The notes under the pieces: generated by a model
Told to the model about the DNA's origin: nothing
Seen by the model: only the letters and a program-made list of their open reading frames with translations
Database searches by the model: none
Part shown: piece by piece, positions 3,640-63,539 of the stretch
Numbering within the stretch: the stretch's first letter is position 1
How the letters are laid out: every line of letters starts with the position of its first letter
Assembly (NCBI RefSeq): GCF_036971445.1
Contig: NC_091471.1
Coordinates: forward strand, 297,476,001-297,540,000
Source of the DNA: Narcine bancroftii
Lineage: Eukaryota
DNA: 64,000 nt
Direction of reading: 5' to 3'
Position numbers and translations under genes: made by a program

Positions 3640-3910
3640 TATATGCGATAATTAGGCATTTTCAATATATGTATACAGGTTCTGTGTGTATGTTCAGTTT
3701 GTATGCATGTTATGTCTGTATGTATCTTTGCGCTGTTTTTGCACCGAGGACTGGAGAACAGTTTCATCAGGTTGTACTGTTATAATCAGATGATAAATAA
3801 AGTTGAACTTAAACTTGGACTCAGTGGGCTGAAGAGCCTGCTTATGGCATTTCTCAAAAAAAAGAACATATTGCAAATCCAAGGGGCACCATTTAAATTT
3901 TCCAACTCAC

Positions 3911-4328
3911 CAACATTGGTTGGAAATATGTTTTCATTGTTCACTTGGGTTTCAATCCAGTCCATAAGAAGACTCATATATTGTGGGGCTGATAATGCTG
4001 TCGGCTTCCTGTACTTATTCTCATCTTGCCATCTATATTCATACCGAGACCCTCCTGACATAACGGGGCACGAGGTATCAGTGCAGAACTCGGAGACAGT
4101 TCCGTAAATTAGATTAATACGGTTGAAGAAATCCACCACATGGACAGCCACCCAGTCATTGAGGTCCTCGTTTGAAGGAAGTTGAACTGCGACTTTCAAA
4201 TCCAGGCCAGCATTCAGCGATGCCTGTGCCCTCTTGTGCAGCTCAAATCTCTGCGTGCCAGGCTCAAACTTGCGCTTGGGACGGAAAGTCTTGTCCTTAT
4301 TGAACACTTGCTTCAAGGCCACAGCCAT
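3911..4328 (-). CDS. MOB3A: MOB kinase activator 3A, first coding exon (whole exon 3911-4446 including 118 nt of 5'UTR)
   Basis: [44 protein letters not shown]...FPTNV(G); ATG 4328, donor gtgagt 3910, acceptor tttttcacag 4447. ASLNAGLDL and PTNVGTPFPK plus linkage to FZR1 favour 3A over 3B/3C. Confidence 0.92.
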
Positions 4329-4599
4329 ATTAAACTCTGTGATGATCTGCCAAGAGCAGGACTGATAATTCGTCAAAACAAAAGATGGAGCTTGAGGGAA
4401 TGACTTTGCTTCCACAGGTGAAAAGGTTACTAACAATTCTTCAGTTCTGTGAAAAACACAAAATAAATTTATGTCATACTTTACCACCTTATAATTCTAT
4501 AGTTATTTGCCAGTTTTACCTATTCTAGCCATAGTCAAGAGGAATTGATTTAGAATGACGCAGTGATACCCCTCCAAAAGGTAATGCCCATGACATCAC

Positions 4600-15789: not shown

Positions 15790-16840
15790 CAGATCTGGGG
15801 AATCATTCCTTCCACTGTCATTAGTGACCTGTACAGCCTCTATCCTCAAGGTCCTTCATCACTCAAACTATGCTACCATCAGGAAGGAGGAACAGGAGCC
15901 TGAAGAAAAACATCCAATGGTACAAAAACAGTTTCTATTCCTTTATCATTGATTTCTGAATGGACAATTAATCACAAACACTACCTCACTTTTTCTTTCT
16001 TGGCACTAAATTTTAAAAAAATGTGATTTATAGCAATTTTTTCACACATAATCCTGCCACAAAACAACAAATTTTGTGACATTTTCATGACAATAAATTC
16101 CAGTCACTCTGCATCTATTCTGACAAAGGGCTGCAGATTGACTCAACTTCTCCCCTCCACAGCTGGTGTCCAATCTGCCAAGTGTCTCCCACAATTTGTT
16201 TTTAGAAACCAAGTTGGTGGCCATTTGGCCCATCCTGTCTGTTCCACCATTCAATAAGATCGTGGCTGATCTGGCTCTGGACTCAACTCCACTTTCCTAC
16301 CCATTTCCTAGGCCCTTCTGGCCTAAGAAACCGATTGCTCCCTTGTGACCAATTAACCTACCAACTCTGTAAGTCTAAGGAATGTGGGAGGAAGCCAGAG
16401 CACCCGGAGGAAACCCAAGGGGAGAACAGACAAACTCCTTACAGAAAGCAGTGAATTGAATCCCAGTCACCGGTGCTGTAATAGCGTTGCACCTACTGTG
16501 CTACCCTGATTTTTTCAAATTCAAATATCTATCTGTATGTTACTTGAAAACTTATACAGGTATACCATAGAGAGGATTGTGTCTGGTTGCACCATTGCCT
16601 GGTCTGGAGGTGTCAATGCTCAGGACAGGAAAAAAACTACAGACACTTGTTAACTCAGCCTGCAATCCCAGGGGGACCCTATTGAGGACGGTTCTCAAAA
16701 AAGCAGCCTCTATCCCCAAGGACCCCACCACCCAGGCCATGCCTTCTTCACTCTGATATCATCAGGGAAAAAGTACAGGAGCCTGAAGATGAGCACTCAA
16801 CGGCACAAGGACAGCTTCTTCCCCATTGCTATCAGATTAA
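15790..16840. mobile_element. Cluster of Rex1 3' fragments (15790-16100, 16560-16840) and a V-SINE (16340-16505)
   Basis: aaggaccccaccacccaggccatgccttc...ggacagcttcttccc (KDPHHPGHA..DSFFP); SINE core gggaggaagccagagcacccggaggaaaccca. Confidence 0.6.
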
Positions 16841-16902
16841 TCAATTGACCAAAGGCACGCCCTTACTTTTTGTGCACGATTATATTTTTTATAGGAATGA
16901 TT

Positions 16903-17985
16903 CTCTCCTCACACCCGTCCCCCCTCGTCCTCTCCTCACACCCGCCCCCCTCGTCCCCTCCTCACACCCGCCCCCCTCGTCCCCTCCTCACACCCGCCCC
17001 CCTCGTCCCCTCCTCACACCCGCCCCCCTCGTCCCCTCCTCACACCCGCCCCCCTCGTCCCCTCCTCACACCCGCCCCCCTCGTCCCCTCCTCACACCCG
17101 CCCCCCTCGTCCCCTCCTCACACCCGCCCCCCTCGTCCCCTCCTCACACCCGCCCCCCTCGTCCCCTCCTCACACCCGCCCCCCTCGTCCCCTCCTCACA
17201 CCCGCCCCCCTCGTCCCCTCCTCACACCCGCCCCCCTCGTCCCCTCCTCACACCCGCCCCCCTCGTCCCCTCCTCACACCCGCCCCCCTCGTCCCCTCCT
17301 CACACCCGCCCCCCTCGTCCCCTCCTCACACCCGCCCCCCTCGTCCCCTCCTCACACCCGCCCCCCTCGTCCCCTCCTCACACCCGCCCCCCTCGTCCCC
17401 TCCTCACACCCGCCCCCCTCGTCCCCTCCTCACACCCGCCCCCCTCGTCCCCTCCTCACACCCGCCCCCCTCGTCCCCTCCTCACACCCGCCCCCCTCGT
17501 CCCCTCCTCACACTCGCCCCCCTCGTCCTCTCCTCACACTCGCCCCCCTCGTCCTCTCCTCACACTCGCCCCCCTCGTCCTCTCCTCACACTCGCCCCCC
17601 TCGTCCTCTCCTCACACTCGCCCCCCCGTCCTCTCCTCACACGCCCCCCTCGTCCTCTCCTCACACTCGCCCCCCTCGTCCTCTCCTCACACTCGCCCCC
17701 CTCGTCCTCTCCTCACACTCGCCCCCCTCGTCCTCTCCTCACACTCGCCCCCCTCGTCCTCTCCTCACACTCGCCCCCCTCGTCCTCTCCTCACACTCGC
17801 CCCCCTCGTCCTCTCCTCACACTCGCCCCCCTCGTCCTCTCCTCACACCCGCCCCCCTCGTCCTCTCCTCACACTCACCCCCCTCAAACTCTCCTCACAC
17901 CCACCCCCCTCGTCCTCTCCTCACACCCACCCCCCTCGACCTCTCCTCACACCCACCCCCCCCCCGTCCTCTCCTCACCCTCTCC
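16903..17985. repeat. 26-bp C-rich minisatellite, ~41 copies
   Basis: Unit cacacccgcccccctcgtcccctcct; switches to cacactcgcccccctcgtcctctcct from ~17510. Confidence 0.97.
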
Positions 17986-18289
17986 TCTTGTCCATCCTGC
18001 CTCAGCAACCCCCACCTCCTTCACCCCTATCCTCTCCCCCCACTCCCCCAGACTTGGACACTATGACTACGGCCCTAGGCTGTTCCATCTCCTCATTCTG
18101 CCCCTCATTTGGGGAGCCTTGTGTTCCCCTCCACCACCCCCTCTCGTCAGTGCTGCGTGAGGATGGGGAACCGGCCCCAGGGCCTCAGCGCCCTCCCGCT
18201 AAGGACCTCCCTCCCGGGGCTCCTGGCCCCTGGGGCGTAGCATTCGCCCAACCCAGACCGCACACCTCCCTCTCCCGACGGACCGTTAC

Positions 18290-18370
18290 CTGACTTGAAC
18301 CGGCCGTCAGCGTCAGCCCCCTCGCCGGTCACTTATCGCGGGGCCCCACCGGCCGCTCTCACACCCAGGC
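18290..18370 (-). other. MOB3A: Candidate non-coding first exon of MOB3A (5' end uncertain)
   Basis: Donor CAG|gtaacg at 18289 inside a CpG-rich island; the first coding exon opens with a splice acceptor, so an upstream exon is required. Confidence 0.6.
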
Positions 18371-18384
18371 TCCCGCCGACTGGC

Positions 18385-18460
18385 GCCTGACTGCGCAGGT
18401 GCTCCCGCCACCGGGCATGCCGGGAGAAGTAGTTCCCCCGTTCCGGCCAGTTGCAACAAA
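18385..18460 (-). promoter_or_regulatory. MOB3A CpG-island promoter: ZNF143/THAP11 SBS-like motif and NRF1-like site
   Basis: Minus strand 18436-18415 GGAACTACTTCTCCCGGCATGC resembles ACTACAnnTCCCAnnATGC; ctgcgcaggtgc at 18391-18402. Confidence 0.6.
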
Positions 18461-18519
18461 GGCGTTGGCCAGGTTGAGCTGTGTGTGGTAATGGGTCGGT
18501 GACCCGGGTAGAACTGGGA

Positions 18520-21500
18520 GTAGTAACGGGCCGGTCTCCCACTTGGAACTGGATGCAGGAAGGGCTATGTCTTGGGGAGAAGTAGGTGCAGTAACGGGCC
18601 GGTCTCCCACTTGGAACTGGGTGCAGGAAGGGCTGTGTCTTGGGGAGAAGGGCGTGTTGTAACAGGCTGGTGTCCCACTTGGAACTGGGGACAGGAAGGG
18701 CTGTGTCTTGGGGAGAAGGGCGTGTAGTAACAGGCTGGTGTCCCACTTGGAACTGGGGACAGGAAGGGCTGTGTCTTGGGTAGAAGGGCGTGTAGTAACA
18801 GGCTGGTGTCCCACTTGGAACGGTGCAGGAAGGGCTGTGTCTTGGGGAGAAGGGTGTATAGTAACAGGCTGTTGTCCCACTTGGAACTGGGTGCAGGAAG
18901 GGCTGTGTCTTGGGGAGAAGGGCGTGTAGTAACAAGCTGGTGTCCCACTTGGAACTGGGTACAGGAAGGGCTGTGTCTTGGGGAGAAGTAGGTGCAGTAA
19001 CGGGCCGGTCTCCCACTTGGAACTGGGTGCAGGAAGGGGTGTGTCTTGGGGAGAAGTAGGTGCAGTAACGGGCCGGTCTCCCACTTGGAACTGGGTGCAG
19101 GAAGGGCTGTGTCTTGGGGAGAAGGGCGTGTAGTAACAGGCTGGTGTCCCACTTGGAACTGTGGACAGGAAGGGCTGTGTCTTGGGGAGAAGGGCGTGTA
19201 GTAACAGGCTGGTGCCCCACTTGGAACTGGATGCAGGAAGGGCTATGTCTTGGGGAGAAGTAGGTGCAGTAACGGGCCGGTCTCCCACTTGGAACTGGGG
19301 ACAGGAAGGGCTGTGTCTTGGGGAGAAGGGCGTGTAGTAACAGGCTGGTGTCCCACTTGGAACTGGGGACAGGAAGGGCTGTATCTTGGGGAGAAGGGCG
19401 TGTAGTAACAGGCTGGTGTCCCACTTGGAACTGGGTACAGGAAGGGCTGTGTCTTGGGGAGAAGGGCGTGTAGTAACAGGCTGGTGTCCCACTTGGAACG
19501 GTGCAGGAAGGGCTGTGTCTTGGGGAGAAGGGTGTATAGTAACAGGCTGTTGTCCCACTTGGAACTGGGTGCAGGAAGGGCTGTGTCTTGGGGAGAAGGG
19601 CGTGTAGTAACAAGCTGGTGTCCCACTTGGAACTGGGTACAGGAAGGGCTGTGTCTTGGGGAGAAGTAGGTGCAGTAACGGGCCGGTCTCCCACTTGGAA
19701 CTGGGTGCAGGAAGGGCTGTGTCTTGGGGAGAAGTAGGTGCAGTAACGGGCCGGTCTCCCACTTGGAACTGGGTGCAGGAAGGGCTGTGTCTTGGGGAGA
19801 AGGGCGTGTAGTAACAGGCTGGTGTCCCACTTGGAACTGGGGACAGGAAGGGCTGTGTCTTGGGGAGAAGGGTGTGTAGTAACAGGCTGGTGCCCCACTT
19901 GGAACTGGGTGCAGGAAGGGCTATGTCTTGGGGAGAAGTAGGTGCAGTAACGGGCCGTTCTCCCACTTGGAACTGGGTCCAGGAAGGGCTGTGTCTTGGG
20001 GAGAAGGGCGTGTAGTAACAGGCTGGTGTCCCACTTGGAACTGGGTACAGGAAGGGCTGTGTCTTGGGGAGAAGTAGGTGCAGTAACGGGCCGGTCTCCC
20101 ACTTGGAACTGGGTGCAGGAAGGGCTGTGTCTTGGGGAGAAGGGCGTGTAGTAACAGGCTGGTGCCCCACTTGGAACTGGGTGCAGGAAGGGCTATGTCT
20201 TGGGGAGAAGTAGGTGCAGTAACGGGCCGGTCTCCCACTTGGAACTGGGAGCAGGAAGGGCTGTGTCTTGGGGAGAAGGGCGTGTAGTAACAGGCTGGTG
20301 TCCCACTTGGAACTGGGGACAGGAAGGGCTGTGTCTTGGGGAGAAGGGCGTGTAGTAACAGGCTGGTGTCCCACTTGGAACTGGGTACAGGAAGGGCTGT
20401 GTCTTGGGGAGAAGGGTGTATAGTAACAGGCTGGTGTCCCACTTGGAACTGGGTGCAGGAAGGGCTGTGTCTTGGGGAGAAGGGCGTGTAGTAACAAGCT
20501 GGTGTCCCACTTGGAACTGGGTACAGGAAGGGCTGTGTCTTGGGGAGAAGTAGGTGCAGTAACGGGCCGGTCTCCCACTTGGAACTGGGTGCAGGAAGGG
20601 CTGTGTCTTGGGGAGAAGGGCGTGTAGTAACAGGCTGGTGTCCCACTTGGAACTGGGTACAGGAAGGGCTGTGTCTTGGGGAGAAGGGCGTGTAGCAACA
20701 GGCTGGTGTCCCACTTGGAACTGGGTACAGGAAGGGCTGTGTCTTGGGGAGAAGTAGGTGCAGTAACGGGCCGGTCTCCCACTTGGAACTGGGTGCAGGA
20801 AGGGCTGTGTCTTGGGGAGAAGTGGGTGCAGTAATGGGCTGTTGTCCCATTTGGAACAGGGTGCAGGAAGGGCTGTGTCTTGGGGAGAAGGGCGTGTAGT
20901 GACAGGCTGGTGTCCCACTTGGAACTGGGTACAGGAAGGGCTGTGTCTTGGGGAGAAGGGCGTGTAGTAACAGGCTGGTGTCCCACTTGGAACTGGGTAC
21001 AGGAAGGGCTGTGTCTTGGGGAGAAGGGCGTGTAGTAACAGGCTGGTGTCTCACTTGGAACTGGGTACAGGAAATGCTGTGTCTTGGGGAGAAGTGGGTG
21101 CAGTAACGGCGCGGTGTCCCACTTGCAACTGGGTACAGCAAGGGCTGTGTCTTGGGGAGAAGTGGGTGCAGTAATGGGCTAGTGTCCCATTTGGAACAGG
21201 GTGCAGGAAGGGCTGTGTCTTGGGGAGAAGTAGGTGCAGTAACAGGCTGGTGTCCCACTTGGAACTGGGTGCAGGAAGGGCTGTGTCTTGGGGAGAAGGG
21301 CGTGTAGTAACAAGCTGGTGTCCCACTTGGAACTGGGTACAGGAAGGGCTGTGTCTTGGGGAGAAGTAGGTGCAGTAACGGGCCGGTCTCCCACTTGGAA
21401 CTGGGTGCAGGAAAAGTTGTGGCTTGGGGAGAAGGGCGTGTAGTAACAGGATGGTGTCCCACTTGGAACTGGGTACAGGAAGGGCTGTGTCTTGGGGAGA

Positions 21501-23660
21501 AGTGGGTGCAGTAATGGCTGTTGTCCCATTTGGAACAGGGTGCAGGAAGGGCTGTGTCTTGGGGAGAAGTTGGTGCAGTCATGGGCTGTTGTCCCATTTG
21601 GAACAGGGTGCGGGAAGGGCGTGTAGTGACAGGTTGGTGTCCCACTTGGAACTGGGTACAGGAAGGGCTGTGACTTGGGGAGAAGGGCTTGTAGTAACAG
21701 GCTGGTGTCCCACTTGGAACTGGGTACAGGAAGGGCTGTGTCTTGGGAGAAGGGCGTGTAGTAACAGGCTGGTGTCCCACTTGGAACTGGGTACAGGAAG
21801 TGCTGTGTCTTGGGGAGAAGTGGGTGCAGTAACGGCGCAGTGTCCCACTTGCAACTGGGTACAGCAAGGGCTGTGTCTTGGGGAGAAGGGCGTGTAGTAA
21901 CAGGCTGGTGTCCCACTTGGAACTGGGTACAGGAAGGGCTGTGTCTTGGGGAGAAGGGCGTGTAGTAACGGGCCGGTCTCCCACTTGGAACTGGGTGGAG
22001 GAAGGGCTGTGTCTTGGGGAGAAGTGGGTGCAGTAATGGGCTGTTGTCCCATTTGGAACGGGGTCCAGGAAGGGCTGTGTCTTGGGGAGAAGGGCGTGTA
22101 GTAACAGGCTGGTGTCCCACTTGAAACTGGGTACAGGAAGGGCTGTGTCTTGGGGAGAAGTGGGTGCAGTAACGGGCCGGTGTCCCACTTGGAACTGGGT
22201 GCAGGAAGGGTTGTGTCTTGGGGAGAAGGGCGTGTAGTAACAGGCTGGTGCCCCACTTGGAACTGGGTACAGGAAGGGCTGTGTCTTGGGGAGAAGTAGG
22301 TGCAGTAACGGGCTCGTGTCCCACTTGGAACTGGGTGCAGGAAGGCCTGTGTCTTGGGGAGAATGGTGTGTAGTAACAGGCTGGTGTCCCACTTGGAACT
22401 GGGTACAGAAGGGCTGTGTCTTGGGGAGAAGTAGGTGCAGTAACGGGCCGGTGTCCCACTTGGAACTGGGTGCAGGAAGGGCTGTGTCTTGGGGAGAAGG
22501 GCGTGTAGTAACAGGCTGGTGCCCCACTTGGAACTGGGTACAGGAAGGGCTGTGTCTTGGGGAGAAGTGGGTGCAGTAACAGGCTGGTGTCCCACTTGGA
22601 ACTGGGTACAGGAAGTGCTGTGTCTTGGGGAGAAGTGGGTGCAGTAACGGCGCGGAGTCCCACTTGCAACTGGGTACAGCAAGGGCTGTGTCTTGGGGAG
22701 AAGTGGGTGCAGTAATGGGCTAGTGTGCCATTTGGAACAGGGTGCAGGAAGGGCTGTGTCTTGGGGAGAAGGGCGTGTAGTAACAGGATGGTGTCCCACT
22801 TGAAACTGGGTACAGGAAGGGCTGTGTCTTGGGGAGAAGTGGGTGCAGTAATGGGCTGTTGTCCCATTTGGAACAGGGTCCAGGAAGGGCTGTGTCTTGG
22901 GTAGAAGGGCGTGTAGTAACAGGCTGGTGTCCCAGTTGGAACTGGGTGCAGGAAGGTCTGTGTCTTGGGTGAAGGGTGTGTAGTAACAGACCGGTGTCCC
23001 ACTTGGAACTGGGTACAGAAGGGCTGTGTCTTGGGGAGAAGTGGGTGCAGTAACGGCACGGTGTCCCACTTGCAACTGGGTCCAGGAAGGGCTGTGTCTT
23101 GGGGAGAAGGGCGTGTAGTAACAGGCTGGTGTTCCACTTGAAACTGGGTACAGGAAAGGCTGTGTCTTGGGGAGAAGTGGGTGCAGTAACGGGCTGGTGA
23201 CCCACTTGGAACTGGGTACAGGAAGGGCTGTGTCTTGGGGAGAAGTGGGTGCATCAACGGGCCAGTGACCCACTTGGGACTGGGTGCAGGAAGTGCTGTG
23301 TCTTGTGGAGAAGTGGCTGCAGTAATGGGCCGGTGTCCCACTTTGAACTGGGTGCAGTAAAGGCTGTGTCTTGGGGAGAAGTGGGTGCAGTAACGGGGCA
23401 GTGTCCCACTTGGAACTGGGTGCAGGAAGGGCTGTGTCTTGTGGAGAAGTGGCTGCAGTAATGGGCCAGTGTCCCACTTTGAACTGGGTGCAGTAAAGGC
23501 TGTGTCTTGGGAAGAAGTGGGTGCCCTAATGGGCCAGTTTCCCACTTGGAACTGGGTGCAGTAAAGGCTGTGTCTTGGGGAGAAGTTGGTGCATCAACAG
23601 GCCAGTGACCCACTTGGAACTGGGTGCAGGAAGTGCTGTGTCTTGGGGAGCTGTGGGTGT
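18520..23660. repeat. 68-bp satellite array, ~75 units, two main unit types and a 678-bp higher-order repeat
   Basis: Unit acttggaactgggtgcaggaagggctgtgtcttggggagaag[ggcgtgtagtaacaggctggtgtccc | taggtgcagtaacgggccggtctccc]. Confidence 0.98.
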
Positions 23661-23664
23661 AGGG

Positions 23665-24150
23665 GCATGAGTATAAAAGTGGGAATGTTCTGATGCAACT
23701 TTTCAGGTCTCATGTCACCTCATGCCTAGCTTTGGCCTCCATATTTTAGGATTTACTGTTTATATTACATTGGAGGCAGTGAAGAGGTTCTTTCTGATTG
23801 GATTTGGGAATGAAGGCTGGTTGATCCTATCACCATTGGAGCTTAGTAGAATGGGTGTAAGAATATTCTGAAAGGAATATTTCCGTTTGTAGGTGAGACT
23901 GGAAAGGGGGACATATTTGGGGAGCAGATTTATGTCAGAGGTGAAGATGGACAGCTTCTCTGAGAGTAATCAATCTATAGAATCCTCTGACCGAAGGAAG
24001 CAGTGGAGGCTATCTGACTGAATCTTTTTAAGGTAGTAGCCATGGGTTTTTGAATCGGAGCAGAATGAAGGGTTTTTGGATACATGGAAGTCCGCTATCA
24101 GATCAGACACGATGTCATTGAATATTTGAGCTGAACTATTTTACTGGCTC
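23665..24150 (+). mobile_element. Highly decayed CR1 3' fragment
   Basis: gagtataaaagtgggaatgttctgatgcaac (EYKSGNVLMQ), gcagtggaggct, gatcagacacgatgtcattgaat. Confidence 0.5.
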
Positions 24151-49574: not shown

Positions 49575-51570
49575 AATATAACCATATAACCACTTACAGC
49601 ACAGAACAGGCCAGTTCGGCCCTACTAGTCCATGCCGTAGCAAATCCCCACCCTCCTAGTCCCACTGACCAGCACCTGGTCCATACCCCTCTAGTCCCCT
49701 CCTATCCATGTAACGATCCATTCTTTCCTTAAATGTAACCAATGATCCCGCCTCGACCACGTCTGCCGGAAGCTCATTCCACATCCCCACCACCCTCTGC
49801 GTAAACAAATTTCCCCTCATGTTCCCCTTATAATTTTCCCCCTTCAATCTTAAACCATGTCCTCTAGTTTGAATCTCCCCCTTTCTTAATTGAAAAAGCC
49901 TATCCACATTTACTCTGTCTGTCCCTTTTAAAATCTTAAACACCTCTATCAAGCCCCCCCCTCAATCTTCTACGCTCCAGAGAAAAAAGCTCCAGTCTGC
50001 ACAACCTTTCCCTGTTACTCAGACCCTGAAATCCTGTCAACATTCTCATGAACCTTCTCTGCACTCTTTCTATTTTGTTTATATCTTTCCTATAATTTGG
50101 TGACCAAAACTGTACACAGTACTCCAAATTTGGCCTCACCAATGCCTTGTACAATTTCATCATAATCTCCCTACTCTTGAATTCAATACTCCGATTTATG
50201 AAGGCTAACATTCCAAATGCCTTCTTCACCACACCATCTACCTGAGTATCAGCCTTGAGGGTACTATTTACCATAACTCCTAAATCCCTTTGTTGCTCAA
50301 TTGTCTACCATTCAATGTATATGACCTATTTAAATTTCCCTTTCCAAAATGTAGCACCTCACATTTATCTGTATTAAATTCCATCAGCCATTTCTCAGCC
50401 CACACCTCCAGTCTTCCTAAATCACCTTTTAATCTACAGTAATCTACCTCACTGTCCACAACACCACCAATCTTTGTGTCATCCGCAAACTTGCTTATCC
50501 AATTCTCCACCCCTACATCTAGATCATTAATATATATAACAAATAATAGTGGACCCAGGACCAAACCCTGAGGAACTCCACTAGTCACCGGCCTCCAATT
50601 GGACAAACAATTTTCTACCACTACTCTCTGACACCTCCCATCCAACCACTGCTGAATCCATTTCACTACCTCTTTATTTATACCTAATGCCTCCACCTTT
50701 TTTCCTAACCTCCTGTGGGGAACTTTGTCAAAAGCTTTACTAAAGTCCAAATAGACAACATCCACAGCTTTCCCTTCATCAACCTTTTTTGTAACCCCCT
50801 CGAAGAACTCAATCAGGTTTGTCAAGCATGATCTACCCCTGACAAAACCATGCTGATTACTCCCTATCAATCCCTGTACCTCCAAAAATTTGTAAATAGC
50901 ACCCCTCAGAACACTTTCCATCAACTTGCCCACCACAGACGTCAGACTTACAGGCCTATAATTCCCAGGTTTGCATTTGGACCCTTTCTTAAACAGAGGA
51001 ACCACATGCGCCACCCTCCAATCCTTTGGCACCACCCCCGTGGCCAGTGACATCCTAAATATCTCTGTTAATGGCCCCACTAACTGTCCACTAGCCTCCC
51101 TGAGTGTCCTAGGGAATATTTTGTCCGGTCCGGGAGATTTATCCACCTTTATCTTTTTTAACACAGCCATCACTACCTCCTCGGTTATCCTTATATGCTT
51201 CATGACCTCCCCACTATTTTTCTTTACTTCAACTGGTTCAACATTTTTTTCCCTAGTGAATACCGAGGCAAAGAAATCATTCAAAATTTCCCCCATTTCC
51301 TCAGACTTCTCACTCAGCCTACCCTCGCTATCTACAAGGGGTCCAATTTTATCTCTCACTAATCTTTTACTTTTAATGTACTTATAGAAACCCTTTGGAT
51401 TTATTTTTACTCTGTCAGCCAAAGCCTCTTCATGCCTTTTTTTGGCCTTTCTAATTTCTTTCTTAAGATTCCTTCTACACTCCTTGTAGTCCTCCTTCAA
51501 CTTCTCAGCTTCCTGGTCTTTATCTTGTACAACTCCCTTTTTCTCCTAACCAAATTTCCAATATTCCACT
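49575..51570 (-). mobile_element. Young 5'-truncated CR1 LINE (RT domain open over 406 aa), sense to FZR1
   Basis: ORF 50280-51500 with PGNYRPVSL, QHGF, DFSKAFD, GVPQG, FADD; continues in 49936-50274 and 49656-49952; (tatggtta)n tail. Confidence 0.95.
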
Positions 51571-54130: not shown

Positions 54131-54454
54131 ACCATCACCACCCCTCCCGATCATCATCGCCCTGACTGCTGCCGCCTCTTTCCCCCCCCCCCCTTTGATT
54201 GTGAGCATACATTTAAGGAAGGTAATTTGCCAAATTAAACAGATTGATGAGCTTAGGATATCATAAATCACTCTAATTCAATAATTTTGTTTAAAAGAAT
54301 AATTGAAGATTTATAACAAAAGACGGGATAATCATAGTTTGTCTGATTTTCAACTAGATAGCATTTTTAAGCCACCCAATGTGGGAGATCACACAAAAAA
54401 ATAATCAAAACGAATGTGAAATAGATGAAATCCAAATTAAAAGATGATACTTAC

Positions 54455-54523
54455 ACAAGGTACCATGTTTTCATTCTGAACATTAATCTGTCTTAAAAGG
54501 CGCCTTTCATAGTCTTGATCCAT
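54455..54523 (-). CDS. FZR1: FZR1 coding exon 1 (whole exon 54455-54568)
   Basis: MDQDYERRLLRQINVQNENMVPC; donor gtaagt, acceptor ctgatttcag at 54569; the 13 exons sum to 1482 nt = 493 aa plus stop. Confidence 0.97.
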
Positions 54524-56951
54524 AGTTAATGGAGATAAATGACGGTAAGTTTTATCAAGATGGCAGATCTGAAATCAGGAAAGGAAAGTTATTTCTAAAA
54601 CAAATATAAACATTTGTCTACATGTTTTGGGTGGTACAGCTGCACTGTTTTACTGTTACAGAGACCCAAATGTGAACCTGATCTTGGGATTATCTACATT
54701 AAGTTTTTAAATCAATAACCATGCAGACTTCCTCTGGGTATTGCATTTTCCTCCCACATCTCAGACAAGTTATACTTTAGTTAGACTAGTATCCAAAAGA
54801 ATCAAAGGGAAGTTGATGGGCAAATGTGAGAGACATTTATTACACATACACAGGCAATAATTTGAGGGAGGGCAAATTATAAGCAGATAAATTCACTTCA
54901 TAACCATCTTGGGGGACATCAGTGCTTGAACTAACTGCCAAATTTGATCAGATAAAAAAAAGCATCAAAAATTCTACAAGAATTCACAACCTCAAACATT
55001 TGGAAATCCCAAATCGAAAGTTGCCACAAAGGAATTATGGAAATGTAACAGGTTTGCAGGAGGTAAATACCCATTCCGATGGCTATATCCGTAGCCTTAT
55101 AAATTATGGCCAAGGCCCATTTAAATCCACTGTTCTCCAACAATGCTATCCTTTCCCACAAAGTGCACCAGTGCATCTCCATCCTGTCTGACCAGTATTG
55201 TAGAAATTATTTTTCATGAATTTTTGTAAATTAATGACTCTGGATTAAAAAAAAGTCCTTCTTATACACTTTAGGGTCTTCAAACTTGTACACTTAGACA
55301 TTTTAAACCCCTCTGTTTAAAGACTCAGTCTAAATAATGACTGCTCTCCAACCATCATTTGCATATGGTTGCAGCTCTCGTATGTTTTGAATGGTCTTCA
55401 GATAGCATTATGCCATGTTCTTTTAAATATAAATTTAGACATACGGACCTTCTGGCCCACGAGCCCATGCCGCCTAAATATACTAATTGACCTACAAATC
55501 CCACACATTTTTGGAGGATGAGAAGAAATCCACACAGATACAAAGAGAACATACAAACTCCTTAAAGAATGCGCCATATTCCAATCAAGATCACTTCAAC
55601 AGTGTGGCAATAACCACTAAATTAACTTGCCATTCTCTATTAAGTCTCAATATTCTGCTTCATCTTCCCTTAAAAAGTTCTTAAAAGATTAAGTAAATGA
55701 AACATGACTGAAAACATTGCTCCAAACACATGTTCTTTGCCAATTCAAATTTATAGCTAGGTTCTTTTTCCTTATGAAATAACCTTATTCAATTAGCAGT
55801 GGTCCGAGAAAGGAAATGAAAATAACTTCCAATTCTCATGTAGACAAAATATTTGGATAATACATATGGCAGTATTCATGGTTCCATCAACAACAATGCA
55901 ACAATTCTGTAAAAGAGAATGCACGTAATTGGGAGAACCAGAAGTTGTTCTGGTGAACGGTAGACAAAACTACCTTAATTCTAAAAAACTAATCACACCT
56001 TGGGAACAACAACTGTCTGAACAAGCAGGATCAGTGAGATAAGGTATGCCTGCAGGTTAACATTCAAACCAACTGATTAGTAACTATTTTGCAAAACAAC
56101 AAATGTGGCAATTACAGCAAGTGATGCACATCACATTGAACGACAGGAATTGGGGATTATGGCGCATTCCTTCACATTACAAGGTAACCATTAGATATTG
56201 ATTGCTATGTTAACCAATTCCACCATAATTTAATAAGCAGAAGTAGATACTGAATTAGATGGCCTTTCCTTCAGCAACTTTGGTTAACAAGTACAATGAG
56301 TACAGAGTACTGATATTCTTAAAGATAGTTGAACAGAATTAGAACAAAATCAGGTACTGAACTGACATAACAGATTTTGTTGAGGAATTGTGTGTACCAT
56401 CTTTATTTTTAAAAAAAATTGTATGCAAATCAGGCCTGTATACTCCCAATAAGGTGAAATGACAGAACCGCAGATCTTAGAACAGTAAACAGCACAGGTA
56501 ACAGGCTACCACAGTTTATGATGAGCGCTTACAGAGATCCATTTCATCTTACCTAGAATAAAAGAACTAGGAGGCATGGTCTGCTTTTGGAGATGAGAAA
56601 CATGAATTTGCTCAAACAATATTGCAATCAAAAAAGTGGTTTTAGCTCCAGTGGGATGACTGTTAGCTAGAATTCAAGCATCAGGCAAAAAAAACCCAGA
56701 TACTGCCTCTCTGTTAGTTCTCCATTCATAGAACGAACATGCAGTCTCAAGCAACTGGAAATCCATGTACATGTTGGATACCAGGGTCTTTATTGTATTA
56801 AAATACAAATTGGATTATTTATTCAGAAAGTTATACAATATGAAATACATGACAAAGATGTGGCCCATGATTCCCAAAGCACCAACACCCTTCACTTTTC
56901 TCCATGTCTAGCCAAGAGATTGCCAGTAATAAAGTCCATTATCATTGTACT

Positions 56952-57817: not shown

Positions 57818-59156
57818 ATCAGAGGAATTATTTTTTTAAATTACACCGCACGCAAATAAAAAGGAATCAAAATGTTGTGACACTTAGGAGATACAATGAA
57901 AGGGGAGCAGAAAATCAGCCCCGTGGAAACAAACAATTGTGAATGTTTCAGGTCACCTGTCAGAGCGTGTTTGATACAGAAAGTTAATTCATTCTATTTC
58001 TCCAGCTTACTGAGTGATTCCAGCAATTCTGCTTTAGCTCCCCATTTATAGCACCAGTCTAAATTTTTTTAAATTTTATGAACAAGCCTGACCAATGATT
58101 CACACTCAAAACAAAAAAACATGAAATGAACAGATCTCATACCCCAAATACCATTGGTGGGTCATTAATATGCCTAAAGTGGCATTGGTGTGATTGTGAA
58201 CAGACATGCCAGCACATTAAATATTGTGTGGGTTCAATGATAACCTGCAGCCTGTTGACAAGTAGTGACAATGCAGAAAGACTGAACAATACATTTTTGT
58301 TTGGAGAGGTTACACGGTCATTGAAAGCAAATTCCTACAGCTGAAAGACAGATCTAAAACTATAAACTGGACTAGAATGGAGGCGTTGTCCTCTAAGGGA
58401 AGGACAAATGCCCAGGAATTCAGAGTAAGCCTACCTAGCTCCAGTTACCTGCTGAGACCAAGAAATGCATTGGAACAAGTACCAACTAGGAACATCATAA
58501 CAATAGGTACCTGTCAGGACTTGGTACTCCCCTGCCACCAGTTACCTGCAAGGATCCGGCAACCTCTTGGCCTTTACACTCCTCTCACAGAGTAACCACC
58601 AGAACCAGATACACCCTTGCACCAAACACAGCCATGAGACACCACTTTTCCATTTTAACAGCCACTCCCAGTAGCAGGAATTGATACTGAGTAACTCCCT
58701 GCTAACTACGCCTTCCCTAGCACCAGATACCCATCACAGACACACACCACCCCCTTGGCATCAGATACCCATTAGTACCATACAACATTGGAATTAATAT
58801 TCCCCTGACACCATAACCTACCAGACTGAATACAAGCAGGACTCTGTACCCCAGCAGAACTCTGGCACTGGGGACCAAACTCAGATAGTCTGGATAGGAA
58901 AGTCTCCAGCTTCACAAACACCCAGCCCGGCCCCTCCAACCACCCCCCCCCCCCCCAGGTAAACGCGCCCCGGCCCTTCCACCCCCCCCCCCCCCCCCCC
59001 CCCCCCCAGGCCTATCGCCCGCGTACCCGCCGAACTCCCCGCGACCGGCCCCTCCCCTCCCCTCCCCCCCCCCCCCACGACCATGTCGCCGGACCCCGCG
59101 CCCGTCCTTCAACCGGGACCCGGTCCCCCATTTCCTCGGCTGATTCCAACACGGAC

Positions 59157-59235
59157 CTGGTGATACCCAGACGAGCTCCGGCCGCCTCAGCACAACATGG
59201 CGGCACCTCCTTCCGGCGCAGATTCCAGCCGCCCG
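59157..59235 (-). other. FZR1: Candidate non-coding first exon of FZR1 (donor CAG|gtccgt at 59156; alternative donor AAG|gtaacg at 59243)
   Basis: CpG island, YY1-type gccgccatgttg; the ATG exon opens with an acceptor, so an upstream exon is required. Confidence 0.5.
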
Positions 59236-59520
59236 ACCGTTACCTTTGTGACGTCACAGAGATTCAAATTGACGACGGAAGCGCGTCGTCACCATGGCAT
59301 CGTCGTGAGGCGGCGGCGATCGAAGGCTGGGAGTCAGTGTGTTAGCGGGTTCCATCCACCACCCGGCCGGGACAGGCCTTCGCACCGAACGCCCAAAGCC
59401 CCAACCCGATGGGCGAGAGGCCAGGCATCGCTCATGGAGACGGTCGTTTGCACGGGCTCGGGTCCCGGTGGGGTGGTCGCGGGCACTTCCGGGTTCAGAC
59501 AGCGGCCTGGAAGATGGTGG
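59190..59520. promoter_or_regulatory. Probable bidirectional CpG-island promoter: YY1, CRE, CHR and ETS sites
   Basis: aacatggcggc 59194; palindrome tgtgacgtcaca 59247-59258; TTTGAA (minus) 59268-59263; cggaag 59276; cacttccgg 59484; aagatggtgg 59511. Confidence 0.7.
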
Positions 59521-59619
59521 AGAGAATGGTGCTCTCCGTCGTGGCTCTGAACAGGAGGGTTCCTGTTACTGATGAAACGCCGCGCCGATGGCGAGGGTCC
59601 GGGGCTGGTGAGGGTCCGA

Positions 59620-60065
59620 ACGCCGATCCGAGCCCGGGATCCTTTCCCCCAAGGTTCAACTCAACCCCTAAGGATCCAAGGCTTTACCCGGGTCCGAGCC
59701 CCCCCCCCGGATACATTCCCCTGGGGTTCAAACCCCGGGATCCGAGCCTGCCCCCCCCCGGGATACAATCCCCTCAGGTACAAACCCCGGGATCCGAGCC
59801 TCCCCCCCCCCCCGGGATACATTCCCCTGGGGGGTCCAAACCCCGGGATCGAGCCTTCCCCGGGATACATTCTCCTGGAGTCCAAACCCCGGGATCTGAG
59901 CCTTCCCCCTGGGATACATTTCCCTGGAGTCCAAACCCCGGAATCCGAGCCTTCCCGCCGGGTTACATTCCCCTGGGGGTCCAACCCCTGGATCCGAGCC
60001 TTACAATCTCCCAGAAGAACACATCTTCCCCAGGGATCCAAGCCTTTCCCCAGGATACATTCTCT
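59620..60065. repeat. Degenerate ~50-60 bp GC-rich minisatellite, ~8 copies
   Basis: Recurring ggatacattcccctgg...caaaccccgggatccgagcc+(c)n. Confidence 0.85.
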
Positions 60066-61871
60066 TCGGGTTCTGTGCCCCGCCCCCACCCAGGAATTGT
60101 GGCATTACCTGCCTAATCTGTGCTTTCTCCCCCGCCGCCAATCCATCACCCATAGGATCTATTCTCCCAGCCCCCCTACCAGCAGTATCTATGCTGTTTC
60201 CTGACCCCCACCCCTCCCATCACCCCTGAAATCTAAGCTGCTCTCCCCTTCCACATCTAATGCTCTGTCACCCCAGGATCCTTTCTATTCCTCCGCCCTC
60301 CAATGATCCGACACCCCCAAGATCCGTGCCCACATCCCTTGAGATGCGTGTTGTTCCTGCAGGATTAGGGCACTACGGGACATCATCCCAATTTCATTGT
60401 CACCCACTCACATCCACAGGGTCAGAATGGATGGTAACCCTGTTGGCAAAGCTCATTCTTTGCTTCGCTCTCTAAAGATCAGTCCAAATCTCCCCCACTG
60501 CCTGCCAAAAAAAAAACAAATGCATGTCTACGTTCCAAAATATTCCTTCACTCGGACTAGGATTGATAGTTGTAATCTGATTAGATTTTTTAAAAAAAGA
60601 TTTAAAATGAGTGGGGAAAGTTACAGAAAAGACCAGAGGGGCACGTTTGTCTCATGGAGGCTGTGGGTATATGGAATTGAATTCCAAAGGAAGTAGAAGA
60701 TGCAGGTGGATAGGAAAGGTTTGGATGAATATGGGCAAAATACAGGCAAATGTGATTAGCTTGGTTGGCATTGACAAGTTGGGCTGTAATTCTGTGGGGA
60801 ACTATCAGAAACCTTGTGCAAACCATGAGAAGCTAAAGGGACTCAGCAGTTCTGGCAGCATCCATGGAGAAAAATGCAGTTAATATTTCAGGTAAGGACC
60901 CTCTTGGAGATTCTTAGTAAGGAATCCTTTGTTAATAAGACATTCTAGTAAGAATCCCTGACTGGAAACTGAAGAAAATAGAAGCTGTGGTACTTTTGGA
61001 TAAAAAAGAAAAATATTTCAAAAAATAGGTGTATTGACCTAATCTCTATTTTGTTTTGATTCAGATTCAGTGTTTTGTGTACTAACAACAGTTTTTATTG
61101 TCTTATGATATCAGTGTTCCAATGGGCTAAATAACCATATGTGTTTTAAAACTTCATGTCTGTGATTGTCATGACAAAATGGTATCCCTGTCCCCTGACC
61201 AATCTTCCCACCCTAACCACATTGTGTTAGCTATCTCTTCTCGGCTTGCTCAGTCTTCATAAAGGGTTCTGACCCAAAACACCAGCAGTTCTTTTGCCCC
61301 CACTGAGTTCCTCCAGCAGATTGTTGCTCCAGACTCCAGCGTATGCAGTTTCCTGTGCGCTATCCTTTTGTTGCTTACATTTTCGAGCATGCTTTCATTT
61401 GTGTACTGAGGCTGCAACATTTAGTTTTATTTTAAAACTGTGGTGCAGATTAACTTGCTACTCCCATTTAGAATTATAGGTTAAATTAATTCTGTGTATA
61501 CTGATTTTATCATTAAATAGGTCTTGGTTCAGTGGAGCTGTTCTTTCTAAACTGGATGTAATTCAGATATTTTTATTTCTCTGGAAAGTATTGTCAGGAA
61601 ACATGGAGAATTCCTGGAAATAGTTGCTGCACAATTTGTGTCACAGAAGTCATGGTACTGGGTGCATGAAATGAAGTGTTCAACATCCCTTCCTTTGAAT
61701 CCAATTATTGCCAAGATTTCCTTTTGCATGCTATGATACCACATCTCAAGGCAGAAAGAAACCAATACCAAGTCCCTTTGTATTATCTCTTGAAAAAAGC
61801 ATGTTATTAAATCCTGTAGTATTTCTGAATGTTTAAGTAGGATACATAAAGATTTTCCTCTTTGTTTGAAG

Positions 61872-62890
61872 ATGGTGATGGCACATGGAGGTAGTAGCTC
61901 TAACTATCCAACAAGGATCTGGTGTGAGCCCAGAAGCTCAGATTGGTGGGAACATGTTGCTTTGAAGAAATTTCAGCCAAATGATTGGCTAGAGAATTTT
62001 TGAATGTCTCAAGGAACATTGTTTCATGTGCGTAACACACGTTCAACACTCACTTGCGTCCAGCACTACCCCGGAAAAGAGAGTTACAGTGGTATTTTAG
62101 TGACTCACTACTAATGTGGAACACAGAACAATTGTTTGGAATAGGCCGTTCACCTGTGTGTAAATGAGAGAGGAAGGTATGCCATGGCATTGTGTCTCTT
62201 AAATCTTCATATCTGAGTCTGCCTTCTCATGAAGAATTTGAAAGCATGGCTCAAACATTTAGTAGCAAGTGGAATTTCCCCAATGTGTTGGTGCAATTAA
62301 CAGCTGCCACATACCCATCATCACCCCTCCTCATTCAGTTGTGCTACAAGGTATAGTGGACGACACTAGAAAATTCTGGGATATCAGCACTGAATTTTCT
62401 GGTAATTCTCTTGATACAACCATCCTGAAGAATTCTGACTTGTGGAGAATGGCAACTGAAAGAAAACTGTTCCCTGACTGTACAGAAAACATTATAGGCA
62501 CTCCAGTGAAACACCTCCTAATTGGCAGCTCTTCATATCCACTGCAGGAGTGGCTGCTAATGCCATATTCAGAAACTGAAACACTGACACTGCATCAGCT
62601 TGCATTTAACTACGGGTTAAGCCATTTGGATGGTTCAAAGCACTTTGGCAGTGTCTTCTCAAAAGGAATGACTGCAGCCTTGAACTAATTCCAGTGATAA
62701 TCACTGCTGTTGTTTTCTTCACAATGTCTGTGAGAAGCACAAAGATGGGTGTAACAGTGAATGGCTGAGTGTTCTTGGGCAGAAAGAAATTTTGTTAACC
62801 GAACAGTGTCTGATAGAACAGTTGACAGTAAAGCAGAAGAAATTTGTGAGGTATTGTCCATTTAGTCTATGGGTTTGCAGGAAACATAGT
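61872..62890 (+). pseudogene. Harbinger/PIF transposase-derived (HARBI1/ALP1-like, DDE_Tnp_4) pseudogene
   Basis: IWCEPRSSDWWEHVALKKFQPNDWLENF*MS, LFGIGRS, FPQCVGAINSCHIPI, HSVVLQGIVD, IGSSSYPLQEWLLMPY, FGWFKALWQCL, LHNVCE; in-frame stops (e.g. 62001) and frameshifts. Confidence 0.85.
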
Positions 62891-63539
62891 TATCCTTTAG
62901 TTGTATAATTTTTAGTACTTGAAAATTTTTTTCAACACATTTTTTGAATAGGGAAGTCTTGATATTGTGTTATGCCTTTACAATAAAACTCCACTTGCCT
63001 CATTATTCCATGGAAAGCTTGTTGCATTTGTTATGTATGAATGATATTCTGCAATTGTTTGGTTAAATATATCTGCATAAAATTTGATAATACAGTATTT
63101 TAAAATATTCAGTTTGAAATAAATGCAAATGTGAGAAGAGAGTGGAATTGGATTCGAGTTCTGATTCATGTCTAGACATAACTGGCAGTTGTAAAACATT
63201 AAATTGCTACTGCCTTCTAATTTCTACAATCAAGATAAATAGTAGTTTGCCTATGCCACACCTGAGTGTAACTTTTACATCGAAGAAGAAAAAAAACACC
63301 TGATTTAGGAAAATCAAATCTCTCACAATGGATAATAATAGCTATATAAAATTGCAATTTATGCATATTAAAATCCTGGCATTCATTTTCTTTGTAAAAT
63401 CATTTCACATTTTCCCACAGCATTGGAGGCTGCCATCTGGCTCAGCAAGCGAACACCAGTTAATTTAGTTCTGTATCCATTGTTTTTTACATTCTCCTGA
63501 AGCTTTTCCTCTATTACAACAGCTTAATCTGTTCAATGC

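What the first reader, a model, noticed from the sequence alone, without database searches (positions are those of the whole stretch)
59490..62990. Harbinger-derived gene remnant, apparently spliced and catalytically altered, head-to-head with FZR1
Seen: a plus-strand HARBI1/ALP1-like reading frame at 61872-62890. It starts right after a polypyrimidine/AG acceptor (ttttcctctttgtttgaag|ATG) and is followed by AATAAA at 62982. A possible upstream coding exon lies at ~61599-61770 (aacATGGAG..FLEIVAAQFVSQ after a 1-nt shift), and there is a donor CTG|gtgagg at 59608 in the FZR1 CpG island. The family motifs GAIDG and LGD.AYPL read GAINS (62299) and IGSSSYPL (62527), and the segment carrying the VE glutamate is deleted. 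I see no TIRs and no Myb/SANT partner ORF. Established: Harbinger transposases have been domesticated repeatedly (vertebrate HARBI1, plant ALP1 without catalytic activity), and DOHH is head-to-head with FZR1 in human. Inference: a once-domesticated, non-catalytic Harbinger gene using the FZR1 bidirectional promoter, possibly within the first intron of DOHH, now pseudogenised in this lineage.
Basis: partly seen in the sequence, partly recalled or inferred. Interest (0 to 1): 0.7.

Follow-up and report, generated by a model that had tools for sequence, protein, structure and literature searches.

The report
Dead tamed transposase gene, still spliced
In this electric ray, a gene tamed from a Harbinger jumping element, intact from sharks to birds, is broken by stop codons and frameshifts yet is still spliced into an RNA that is likely a non-coding by-product of a promoter shared with FZR1.

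Summary
The stretch is a single-copy, broken orthologue of an unnamed 425-aa gene derived from a PIF/Harbinger transposase. The gene is intact in chimaera, sharks, sawfish, skates, coelacanth, ray-finned fish, caecilians, axolotl, turtles, crocodilians and birds. Its protein tree follows the species tree. It shares a contig with DOHH in 18 of 18 species where both were listed. Here 5 stops and 5 frameshifts survive correction with reads (2 other frameshifts were assembly errors), and 45 of 227 invariant residues changed. Four RNA-like runs still splice it, from a new repeat-derived donor (60892) to the old acceptor (61872), head-to-head with FZR1. Nine successful literature searches showed no description of the gene. 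Likely a natural knockout of an unstudied domesticated transposase.

The parts
54454..54568 (-). FZR1 first coding exon (ATG at 54523)
   Evidence: PDB match to FZR1 residues 1-22; spliced to 59157 in runs X2 and X8 (loose ends, located)
59157..59221 (-). FZR1 non-coding first exon (least extent)
   Evidence: contig piece in X8 and GT donor at 59156
59001..60000 (.). CpG island holding both 5' ends; inferred bidirectional promoter
   Evidence: GC 0.65-0.68, CpG o/e 0.63-0.99; contig ends of the two transcripts 59-90 nt apart, a weak hint only
59295..60891 (+). exon 1 of today's transcript (old coding exon 1 plus the 5' part of the old intron)
   Evidence: one 2737-nt contig in X8 covers 59295-60891 and 61872-63009; same joint in X1, X2, X6
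59514..59607 (+). remnant of ancestral coding exon 1, frameshifted and apparently short of about 25 codons
   Evidence: tblastn of P0001 residues 14-47 at 59560 (E 0.77, weak alone; LLMKRRA identical); frames; exon boundary inferred from isoforms that diverge before MVMA
59608..59613 (+). likely ancestral splice donor, not used in the contigs
   Evidence: sequence; 4 of 4 RNA-like runs read through it
59687..60002 (.). 49-bp tandem repeat, 6.3 copies, length-variable between samples
   Evidence: 54-nt and 105-nt skips in X2 and X3/X5
60700..60897 (.). decayed interspersed repeats that supply the new splice donor at 60892
   Evidence: many 80-90% alike contigs from elsewhere pile on 60702-60891; donor sequence
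60892..61871 (+). 980-nt GT..AG intron now spliced
   Evidence: joint in X1, X2, X6, X8; absent from DNA runs X3, X5, whose contigs cover the intron
61872..62889 (+). broken main coding exon (HTH plus DDE/RNase H-like core), 79% identical to the sawfish protein; stops at 62001, 62098, 62101, 62165, 62863; frameshifts near 62043, 62072, 62131, 62626, 62793; 12-codon deletion at 62332
62246..62688 (+). longest residual ORF in the old frame (147 aa once the assembly error at 62277 is allowed for)
62982..63009 (+). AATAAA and likely 3' end of the transcript, 2.3 kb before the DOHH start codon (G000:C8:297541245, outside the window)
   Evidence: X8 contig stops at 63009, X1 at 62976, X6 at 62953, X2 at 63208; DOHH exons

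Best explanation
This is a unitary pseudogene: the only copy in this genome of an old jawed-vertebrate gene derived from a Harbinger transposase, broken by 5 stops and 5 frameshifts, and still spliced into a 2.7-kb RNA that is likely a non-coding by-product of a CpG-island promoter shared with FZR1. Shown: orthology, breakage, splicing, head-to-head layout. Inferred steps: (1) a Harbinger transposase settled next to the FZR1 island before cartilaginous and bony fish split, gained an intron and lost its Myb/SANT partner ORF and its ends. (2) It kept D-D-E at first and lost triad residues separately in cartilaginous fish, caecilians and most teleosts, so the function kept in those lineages does not need cutting; by analogy with HARBI1-NAIF1 and plant ALP1/HDP1 it likely acts as a chromatin scaffold with a Myb/SANT partner (untested here). 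(3) After the electric-ray line split from sawfish and skates the protein was released from selection. (4) Transcription goes on because the promoter is kept for FZR1; the old donor decayed, a repeat-derived donor took over, and the old acceptor and polyA signal still work.
For: Single DNA match in G000; best tblastn match of the sawfish protein is this locus, the other 138 matches are 29-50% identical. Intact orthologues in 12 named cartilaginous-fish species in one cluster plus skates and across bony vertebrates. One clade, SH-aLRT 99, that mirrors the species tree. Same-length contig as DOHH in 18 of 18 species, consecutive accessions in 7 of 18. Breaks present in contigs of 4 of 4 RNA-like samples, with 0 other letters and only 3 single-base indels over the coding exon. 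45 of 227 invariant residues changed against 1-19 in intact rows; 13 of 67 pan-vertebrate invariant residues changed. GT..AG joint in 4 of 4 RNA-like runs and 0 of 3 DNA runs. 24 ATGs lie upstream of the old exon-2 start in the transcript. 23 of 63 human domesticated genes sit in bidirectional pairs (PMC2777200, passages).
Against: All RNA-like runs come from one study, their RNA status is the tool's guess, and they are unstranded contigs, so starts, ends and levels are not shown. A lesion-free stretch of 458 nt is longer than expected (p 0.03, post hoc) though its substitution rate is not significantly lower (11 of 77 against 34 of 150, p 0.16). Synteny elsewhere rests on contig lengths and accession order, not on DNA; 11 of 18 pairs are not consecutive, no teleost pair was available, and the FZR1 side was tested only here. 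The tree is the quick version, and one long-branched unnamed protein falls inside the clade. The scaffold role of the intact protein has no direct evidence.
Confidence: 0.85

Rival explanations
1. The protein is dead but the transcription unit has been kept by selection, as a long non-coding RNA or as a splice-and-polyA trap that stops divergent FZR1 transcription from running into the DOHH promoter.
For: Spliced in 4 of 4 RNA-like samples; acceptor and AATAAA intact; no listed joint or continuous contig reaches DOHH 2.3 kb further on.
Against: The donor in use comes from a decayed repeat and exon 1 holds a length-variable tandem repeat; transcription is explained by the shared island alone; no DNA of a related species was available to show conservation (run X9 proved identical where it lay).
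Confidence: 0.09
2. A truncated 147-aa core fragment (62246-62688) is still made and is under weak selection.
For: Longest lesion-free gap, p 0.03 post hoc; 14% against 23% of invariant residues changed.
Against: Difference not significant (p 0.16); 14% is well above intact rows (0.4-7.7%); the piece carries D>N and a 12-codon deletion and lacks the last helices; more than 24 ATGs lie upstream.
Confidence: 0.03
3. An ordinary dead Harbinger transposon that landed near FZR1.
For: DDE_Tnp_4 match; the genome holds many Harbinger-like copies (139 matches; 148 Myb matches).
Against: Single copy; 79% identical to a single-copy sawfish gene against 29-50% for the other matches; no Myb ORF within 262 kb, whereas other copies have a Myb match about 2-3.5 kb from the transposase match (e.g. 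on C1 at 445.79 Mb, C22 at 68.90 Mb, C15 at 84.88 Mb); species-tree phylogeny and DOHH linkage.
Confidence: 0.01
4. The gene is intact and the breaks are assembly errors.
For: Five single-base assembly errors lie in 59632-62787, three in the coding exon.
Against: After allowing for them, 5 stops, 5 frameshifts and the deletions remain, and contigs of four RNA-like samples match them letter for letter.
Confidence: 0.01

Closest known systems
HARBI1 (with NAIF1), jawed vertebrates
   Same: [quoted passage not shown] Databases often label the intact orthologues 'putative nuclease HARBI1'.
   Different: HARBI1 is present in mammals; no named mammal is among the best 120 hits of this gene. This gene lies beside DOHH; human HARBI1 lies beside ATG13 and is about 350 aa (both recalled). 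No HARBI1 sequence could be obtained for a direct comparison. Here the gene is dead.
ALP1/ALP2 and HDP1 (Arabidopsis), PANDA (rice), insect PIF-derived genes
   Same: Domesticated PIF/Harbinger transposases; ALP1 is a PRC2 accessory and HDP1-HDP2 act in a histone acetyltransferase complex (titles and abstract starts only). Loss of catalytic residues as in the shark, caecilian and teleost orthologues.
   Different: Independent domestications in other kingdoms or phyla; 'ALP1-like' labels on these vertebrate proteins are similarity names. No partner or complex is shown for this gene, and 14 of 30 orthologues keep D-D-E.
Domesticated transposon genes in head-to-head CpG-island pairs (TIGD1-EIF4E2, THAP9/THAP9-AS1)
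   Same: First exon overlaps a host CpG island and a separate downstream exon holds the transposase, as modelled in PMC2777200 (passages).
   Different: That survey covers human and mouse and does not mention Harbinger genes (0 occurrences); this case is far older and shows the end stage, with transcription outliving the protein.
Transcribed unitary pseudogenes (class recalled, e.g. GULO, UOX in primates)
   Same: Loss of the only copy of a gene kept in relatives.
   Different: The lost gene is transposon-derived and unstudied; the transcript has been re-spliced through a repeat-derived donor.

Membership tests
PIF/Harbinger transposase-derived protein | DDE_Tnp_4 (PF13359) domain with upstream HTH | tested here: met
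   Window piece E 2e-8; 5 of 5 intact orthologues pass the DDE_Tnp_4 cut-off, HTH_Tnp_4 E 2e-6 to 2e-4 with 1 of 5 over its cut-off. Foldseek best match ISCth4 transposase, only E 0.006.
Autonomous Harbinger transposon | Terminal inverted repeats of 25-50 bp (PMC9179366) | tested here: not met
   No flanking pair of that kind among the 25 longest of 67 inverted pairs in 59101-65620; best 29 nt at 72% between simple G/C-rich repeats.
Autonomous Harbinger transposon | Second ORF for a Myb/SANT-like protein | tested here: not met
   Profiles from 20 plus 11 Myb matches of G000 give no hit under E 1 in 262 kb; none of the listed matches lies at this locus.
Autonomous Harbinger transposon | Dispersed related copies | tested here: not met
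   1 DNA match in G000.
Autonomous Harbinger transposon | Intact D-D-E triad | tested here: not met
   N, S and deleted here; D-S-D in 21 and D-S-H in 1 of 22 intact cartilaginous-fish rows. Triad positions are recalled and agree with transposon-like relatives printed.
Domesticated transposase gene (intact orthologues) | Single-copy orthologues inherited with the species tree | tested here: met
   Clade of 24 named orthologues plus 4 unnamed proteins, SH-aLRT 99, topology follows species (quick tree, 60 rows).
Domesticated transposase gene (intact orthologues) | Conserved synteny | tested here: met
Teleosts and the FZR1 side not tested outside G000.
Domesticated transposase gene (intact orthologues) | Purifying selection | tested here: inconclusive
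   86% amino-acid identity chimaera to horn shark, 64% to coelacanth implies it; dN/dS not run because no orthologous DNA was available.
HARBI1 orthologue | Groups with human HARBI1 in a tree | not tested
   No HARBI1 sequence was returned by any search; two motif patterns found nothing in G000.
HARBI1 orthologue | Present in mammals and at the HARBI1 locus | tested here: not met
   No named mammal among the best 120 of 951 hits; locus is FZR1-DOHH. HARBI1's mammalian presence, its locus recalled.
Unitary pseudogene | Disabling lesions that are not assembly errors | tested here: met
   5 stops and 5 frameshifts remain and are matched by contigs of 4 samples.
Unitary pseudogene | No working paralogue in the genome | tested here: met
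   limit: 107 of 2292 candidates were scored.
Unitary pseudogene | No protein product | not testable with these tools
   Needs ribosome profiling or proteomics; residual 147-aa ORF.

The most novel reading that the evidence does not exclude
Jawed vertebrates carry a second, undescribed Harbinger-transposase gene that may still be a nuclease in coelacanth, gar, turtles, crocodilians and birds and a non-cutting scaffold in sharks; the electric ray lost it together with its Myb/SANT partner (no NAIF1-like or HARBI1-like match turned up in this genome), making it a natural knockout of the whole domesticated Harbinger module, while the dead gene was kept as a spliced non-coding unit that shields DOHH from FZR1's divergent transcription.
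Probability: 0.1. Interest if true: 0.75.

Novelty: new member of a known kind. Interest (0 to 1): 0.5.

Why it matters
The paper read on vertebrate Harbinger-derived genes names HARBI1 as the transposase-derived one and started from human genes (PMC9392472, passages). This gene has been kept for roughly the whole history of jawed vertebrates, is hidden under 'HARBI1-like' and 'ALP1-like' labels, and was not seen in mammals. The electric-ray copy shows that it can be lost in a living lineage, independently of mammals. That gives a gain-and-loss pattern for finding its partner by co-loss, and a clear case of a domesticated transposon gene whose promoter borrowing outlasts the protein. The patchy D-D-E triad makes a simple test possible of whether cutting matters.

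Tried and rejected
Upstream coding exon 61599-61770: no match to the intact N-terminus, inside the spliced intron. Nesting in DOHH intron 1: no listed joint to DOHH (5 further joints were not shown, and contigs drop rare forms). Fused X-DOHH protein: 0 proteins matched both among those held (123 DOHH-like, 357 X-like), although a bird cluster mixes the two. A relative's DNA: run X9 ('organism B') was identical to the window where it lay uniquely, so it gave no outgroup. The run search listed no holder on record as RNA; I treat X1, X2, X6, X8 as RNA because they show GT..AG joints for this gene, FZR1 and DOHH. HARBI1 in G000: two motif patterns, 0 matches; an ATG13 family search meant as a landmark also found nothing, so these searches cannot show absence. 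NAIF1: none of 11 PF13873 matches looked like it by recalled sequence; inconclusive. Structure: AlphaFold model of P0001, pLDDT 74.5; no PDB match at E under 0.001; the Atlas added only family names. Literature: nine searches ran; none listed a paper on this gene; the one 'ch211-133l5' hit concerns .7, not .8; PMC9004415 passages do not mention DOHH or FZR1; PMC3369469 has no Harbinger mention. Sinzelle 2008 and Kapitonov and Jurka 2004 were not read, and no supplements were opened; a mention there or in Repbase cannot be excluded. No complex prediction was run, since no partner is claimed. The last column printed is one residue off for the third triad position; I read that residue from the printed motif.
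Full report
What is in the window. The plus strand at 61872-62889 holds a transposase-like coding remnant spread over all three frames. Its longest open piece matches Pfam DDE_Tnp_4 (E 2e-8; 1 of 6 pieces scanned). FZR1 lies on the minus strand, with its start codon at 54523. DOHH begins 1.2 kb past the window end on the plus strand, with coding exons at extended coordinates 65245, 68744, 70529 and 73968. The order is FZR1 (minus), CpG island, the gene (plus), DOHH (plus). The first DOHH exon is 100% identical to a protein labelled Narcine bancroftii, so the genome is an electric ray's.

An intact gene exists elsewhere. The open piece finds a 425-aa protein of horn shark (E 1e-51). Its cluster has 24 members; the 15 listed come from 12 species, chimaera to sawfish, and a second cluster holds skates. 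Searching with the full protein gives 951 hits; the best 120 include coelacanth (65%), sturgeon, bowfin, gar, many teleosts, caecilian, axolotl, turtles, crocodilians and birds, and no named mammal, lizard, snake or frog. That blank is limited by the 120-row cut. A profile search of 50% representatives gave no further close lineage beyond caecilian-, bird- and teleost-like proteins, judged by sequence because that library has no names. In a quick maximum-likelihood tree of 60 proteins, 24 named orthologues and 4 unnamed proteins form one clade (SH-aLRT 99) that follows the species tree, apart from 32 other Harbinger-like proteins.

Synteny, tested indirectly. For 18 species both this gene and DOHH were listed; in all 18 they lie on contigs of equal length, including scaffolds of 1.3 and 4.0 Mb in birds. 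In 7 of 18 the accession numbers are consecutive: two sharks by GenBank number, basking shark, two skates, gharial and alligator. That accession order reflects gene order is an inference; the other 11 pairs are 9 to several thousand numbers apart. No teleost pair was available. A teleost cluster mixes this gene with GNA11, which hints at another neighbour there.

It is dead here, and that is not an assembly artefact. Against the sawfish protein the assembly shows 5 stops and 7 frameshifts. Contigs of four RNA-like samples and one DNA sample agree on three single-base errors in the coding exon. Allowing for them removes two frameshifts and alters a third; 5 stops, 5 frameshifts and deletions of 6, 12 and 8 codons remain, at 79% identity (266 of 335). 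Of 227 residues invariant in ten intact cartilaginous-fish proteins, 45 are changed here, against 1-19 when each intact row is tested the same way. This is roughly 0.09 substitutions per site of free drift (crude). The DNA has one match in the genome, and the sawfish protein's other 138 matches are 29-50% identical (107 of 2292 candidates scored).

Catalytic residues. All 22 intact cartilaginous-fish rows read IDS and IGSSS and carry D (21) or H (1) at the glutamate position. So the S at 62527 is inherited, whereas the N at 62299 and the deletion at 62626 are later decay. Across 30 orthologues 14 keep D-D-E: coelacanth, sturgeon, bowfin, gar, tarpon, a halosaur, axolotl, two turtles, gharial and four birds. 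Cartilaginous fish, caecilians and the other teleosts each lost one or more residues. The ancestral gene therefore had a full triad, and losses happened at least three times (inference from the tree). The triad positions are recalled and match transposon-like relatives.

Gene structure then and now. Intact isoforms diverge just before MVMA, which marks the exon 2 start at 61872. The old exon 1 survives at 59514-59607, frameshifted and apparently shortened, ending at CTG|GT; the blast support alone is weak (E 0.77). Today four RNA-like runs (four samples, one study) show a GT..AG joint from 60891 to 61872, absent from three DNA runs. In X8 one 2737-nt contig runs 59295-60891 and 61872-63009, ending 22 nt after AATAAA; the exon model gives the same length. 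The donor in use sits in decayed repeats. FZR1's first exon covers at least 59157-59221 and splices to 54568, so the two 5' contig ends are under 100 nt apart in one CpG island. Contigs cannot show true starts, strand or level, and the RNA label is the tool's guess, backed by the splice joints. DOHH is covered by separate contigs with no listed joint from the island.

Not a transposon. No flanking inverted repeats, no Myb/SANT frame in 262 kb, single copy, spliced, species-tree phylogeny. Other Harbinger-like copies in this genome do have a Myb match a few kb from the transposase match, as PMC9179366 describes for autonomous elements (passages).

How it most likely works. Shown: broken orthologue, spliced RNA, head-to-head layout. 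Inferred: the RNA is a passive divergent transcript of a promoter kept for FZR1, with 24 ATGs before the old exon 2 start. Bidirectional CpG promoters host 23 of 63 human domesticated genes (PMC2777200, passages). For the intact protein I commit to a non-cutting chromatin scaffold with a Myb/SANT partner, about 60%, by analogy with HARBI1-NAIF1 (PMC9392472, passages) and plant ALP1 and HDP1 (search listings only); retention of D-D-E in 14 of 30 leaves nuclease activity open in those lineages. The model shows a long N-terminal helix, a helical domain and an RNase H-like core (pLDDT 74.5), with only weak PDB matches to transposases. A residual 147-aa ORF is a weak rival.

Novelty. Nine searches of the held library listed no description of this gene; the two founding HARBI1 papers and all supplements were not seen. 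The scan's own notes record the intact gene in 7 other genomes (AI notes, read after my reading was fixed); they agree and are not counted as support. New here are the lineage-specific loss and the re-spliced surviving transcript. Class: new member of a known kind (domesticated PIF/Harbinger transposase; transcribed unitary pseudogene). Interest 0.5.

Noticed in passing
window 59632, 61154, 62277, 62706, 62787 and L034 4568-5382: The assembly has frequent single-base errors here: five in 3.2 kb that RNA-like and DNA contigs agree on, and more downstream in DNA contigs. Frameshifts called in this genome need checking against reads.
   Followed up: yes
G000 as a whole: No NAIF1-like sequence among 11 PF13873 matches and no match to two recalled HARBI1 motifs. 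Could be co-loss of the Harbinger-derived module, but the ATG13 landmark search also failed, so absence is not shown.
   Followed up: partly
window 61711-61760: Intronic stretch that resembles, by eye, the alternative N-termini predicted for sawfish (P0006) and thorny skate (P0017); perhaps a batoid alternative exon or conserved intron sequence.
   Followed up: no
protein clusters: The bird cluster of this gene also holds DOHH proteins and a teleost cluster holds GNA11 proteins, which suggests fused gene models and adjacency; the gar orthologue is named si:ch211-133l5.8.
   Followed up: partly
P0344, P0347, P0367: Fast-evolving teleost-like paralogues; P0344 and P0347 fall inside the clade near eel sequences, possibly from the teleost genome duplication.
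   Followed up: partly
P0115 (hagfish), P0346, P0137: Other Harbinger-like proteins with changed triad residues outside this clade; possible further domestications.
   Followed up: no
window 3786-4496 (-): Exon of a MOB1/phocein-family gene (E 1e-42), probably MOB3A, which fits the human 19p13.3 neighbourhood (recalled).
   Followed up: no
window 16700-23700: GC-rich tandem arrays, about 7 kb, giving long spurious ORFs.
   Followed up: no
window 50280-51545 (-): LINE reverse-transcriptase fragment inside an FZR1 intron (RVT_1, E 6e-33).
   Followed up: no
L002 3200-5950 (past the window end): DOHH start codon directly in the first covered exon, followed by about 2.4 kb of G-rich tandem repeats in its intron.
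   Followed up: no
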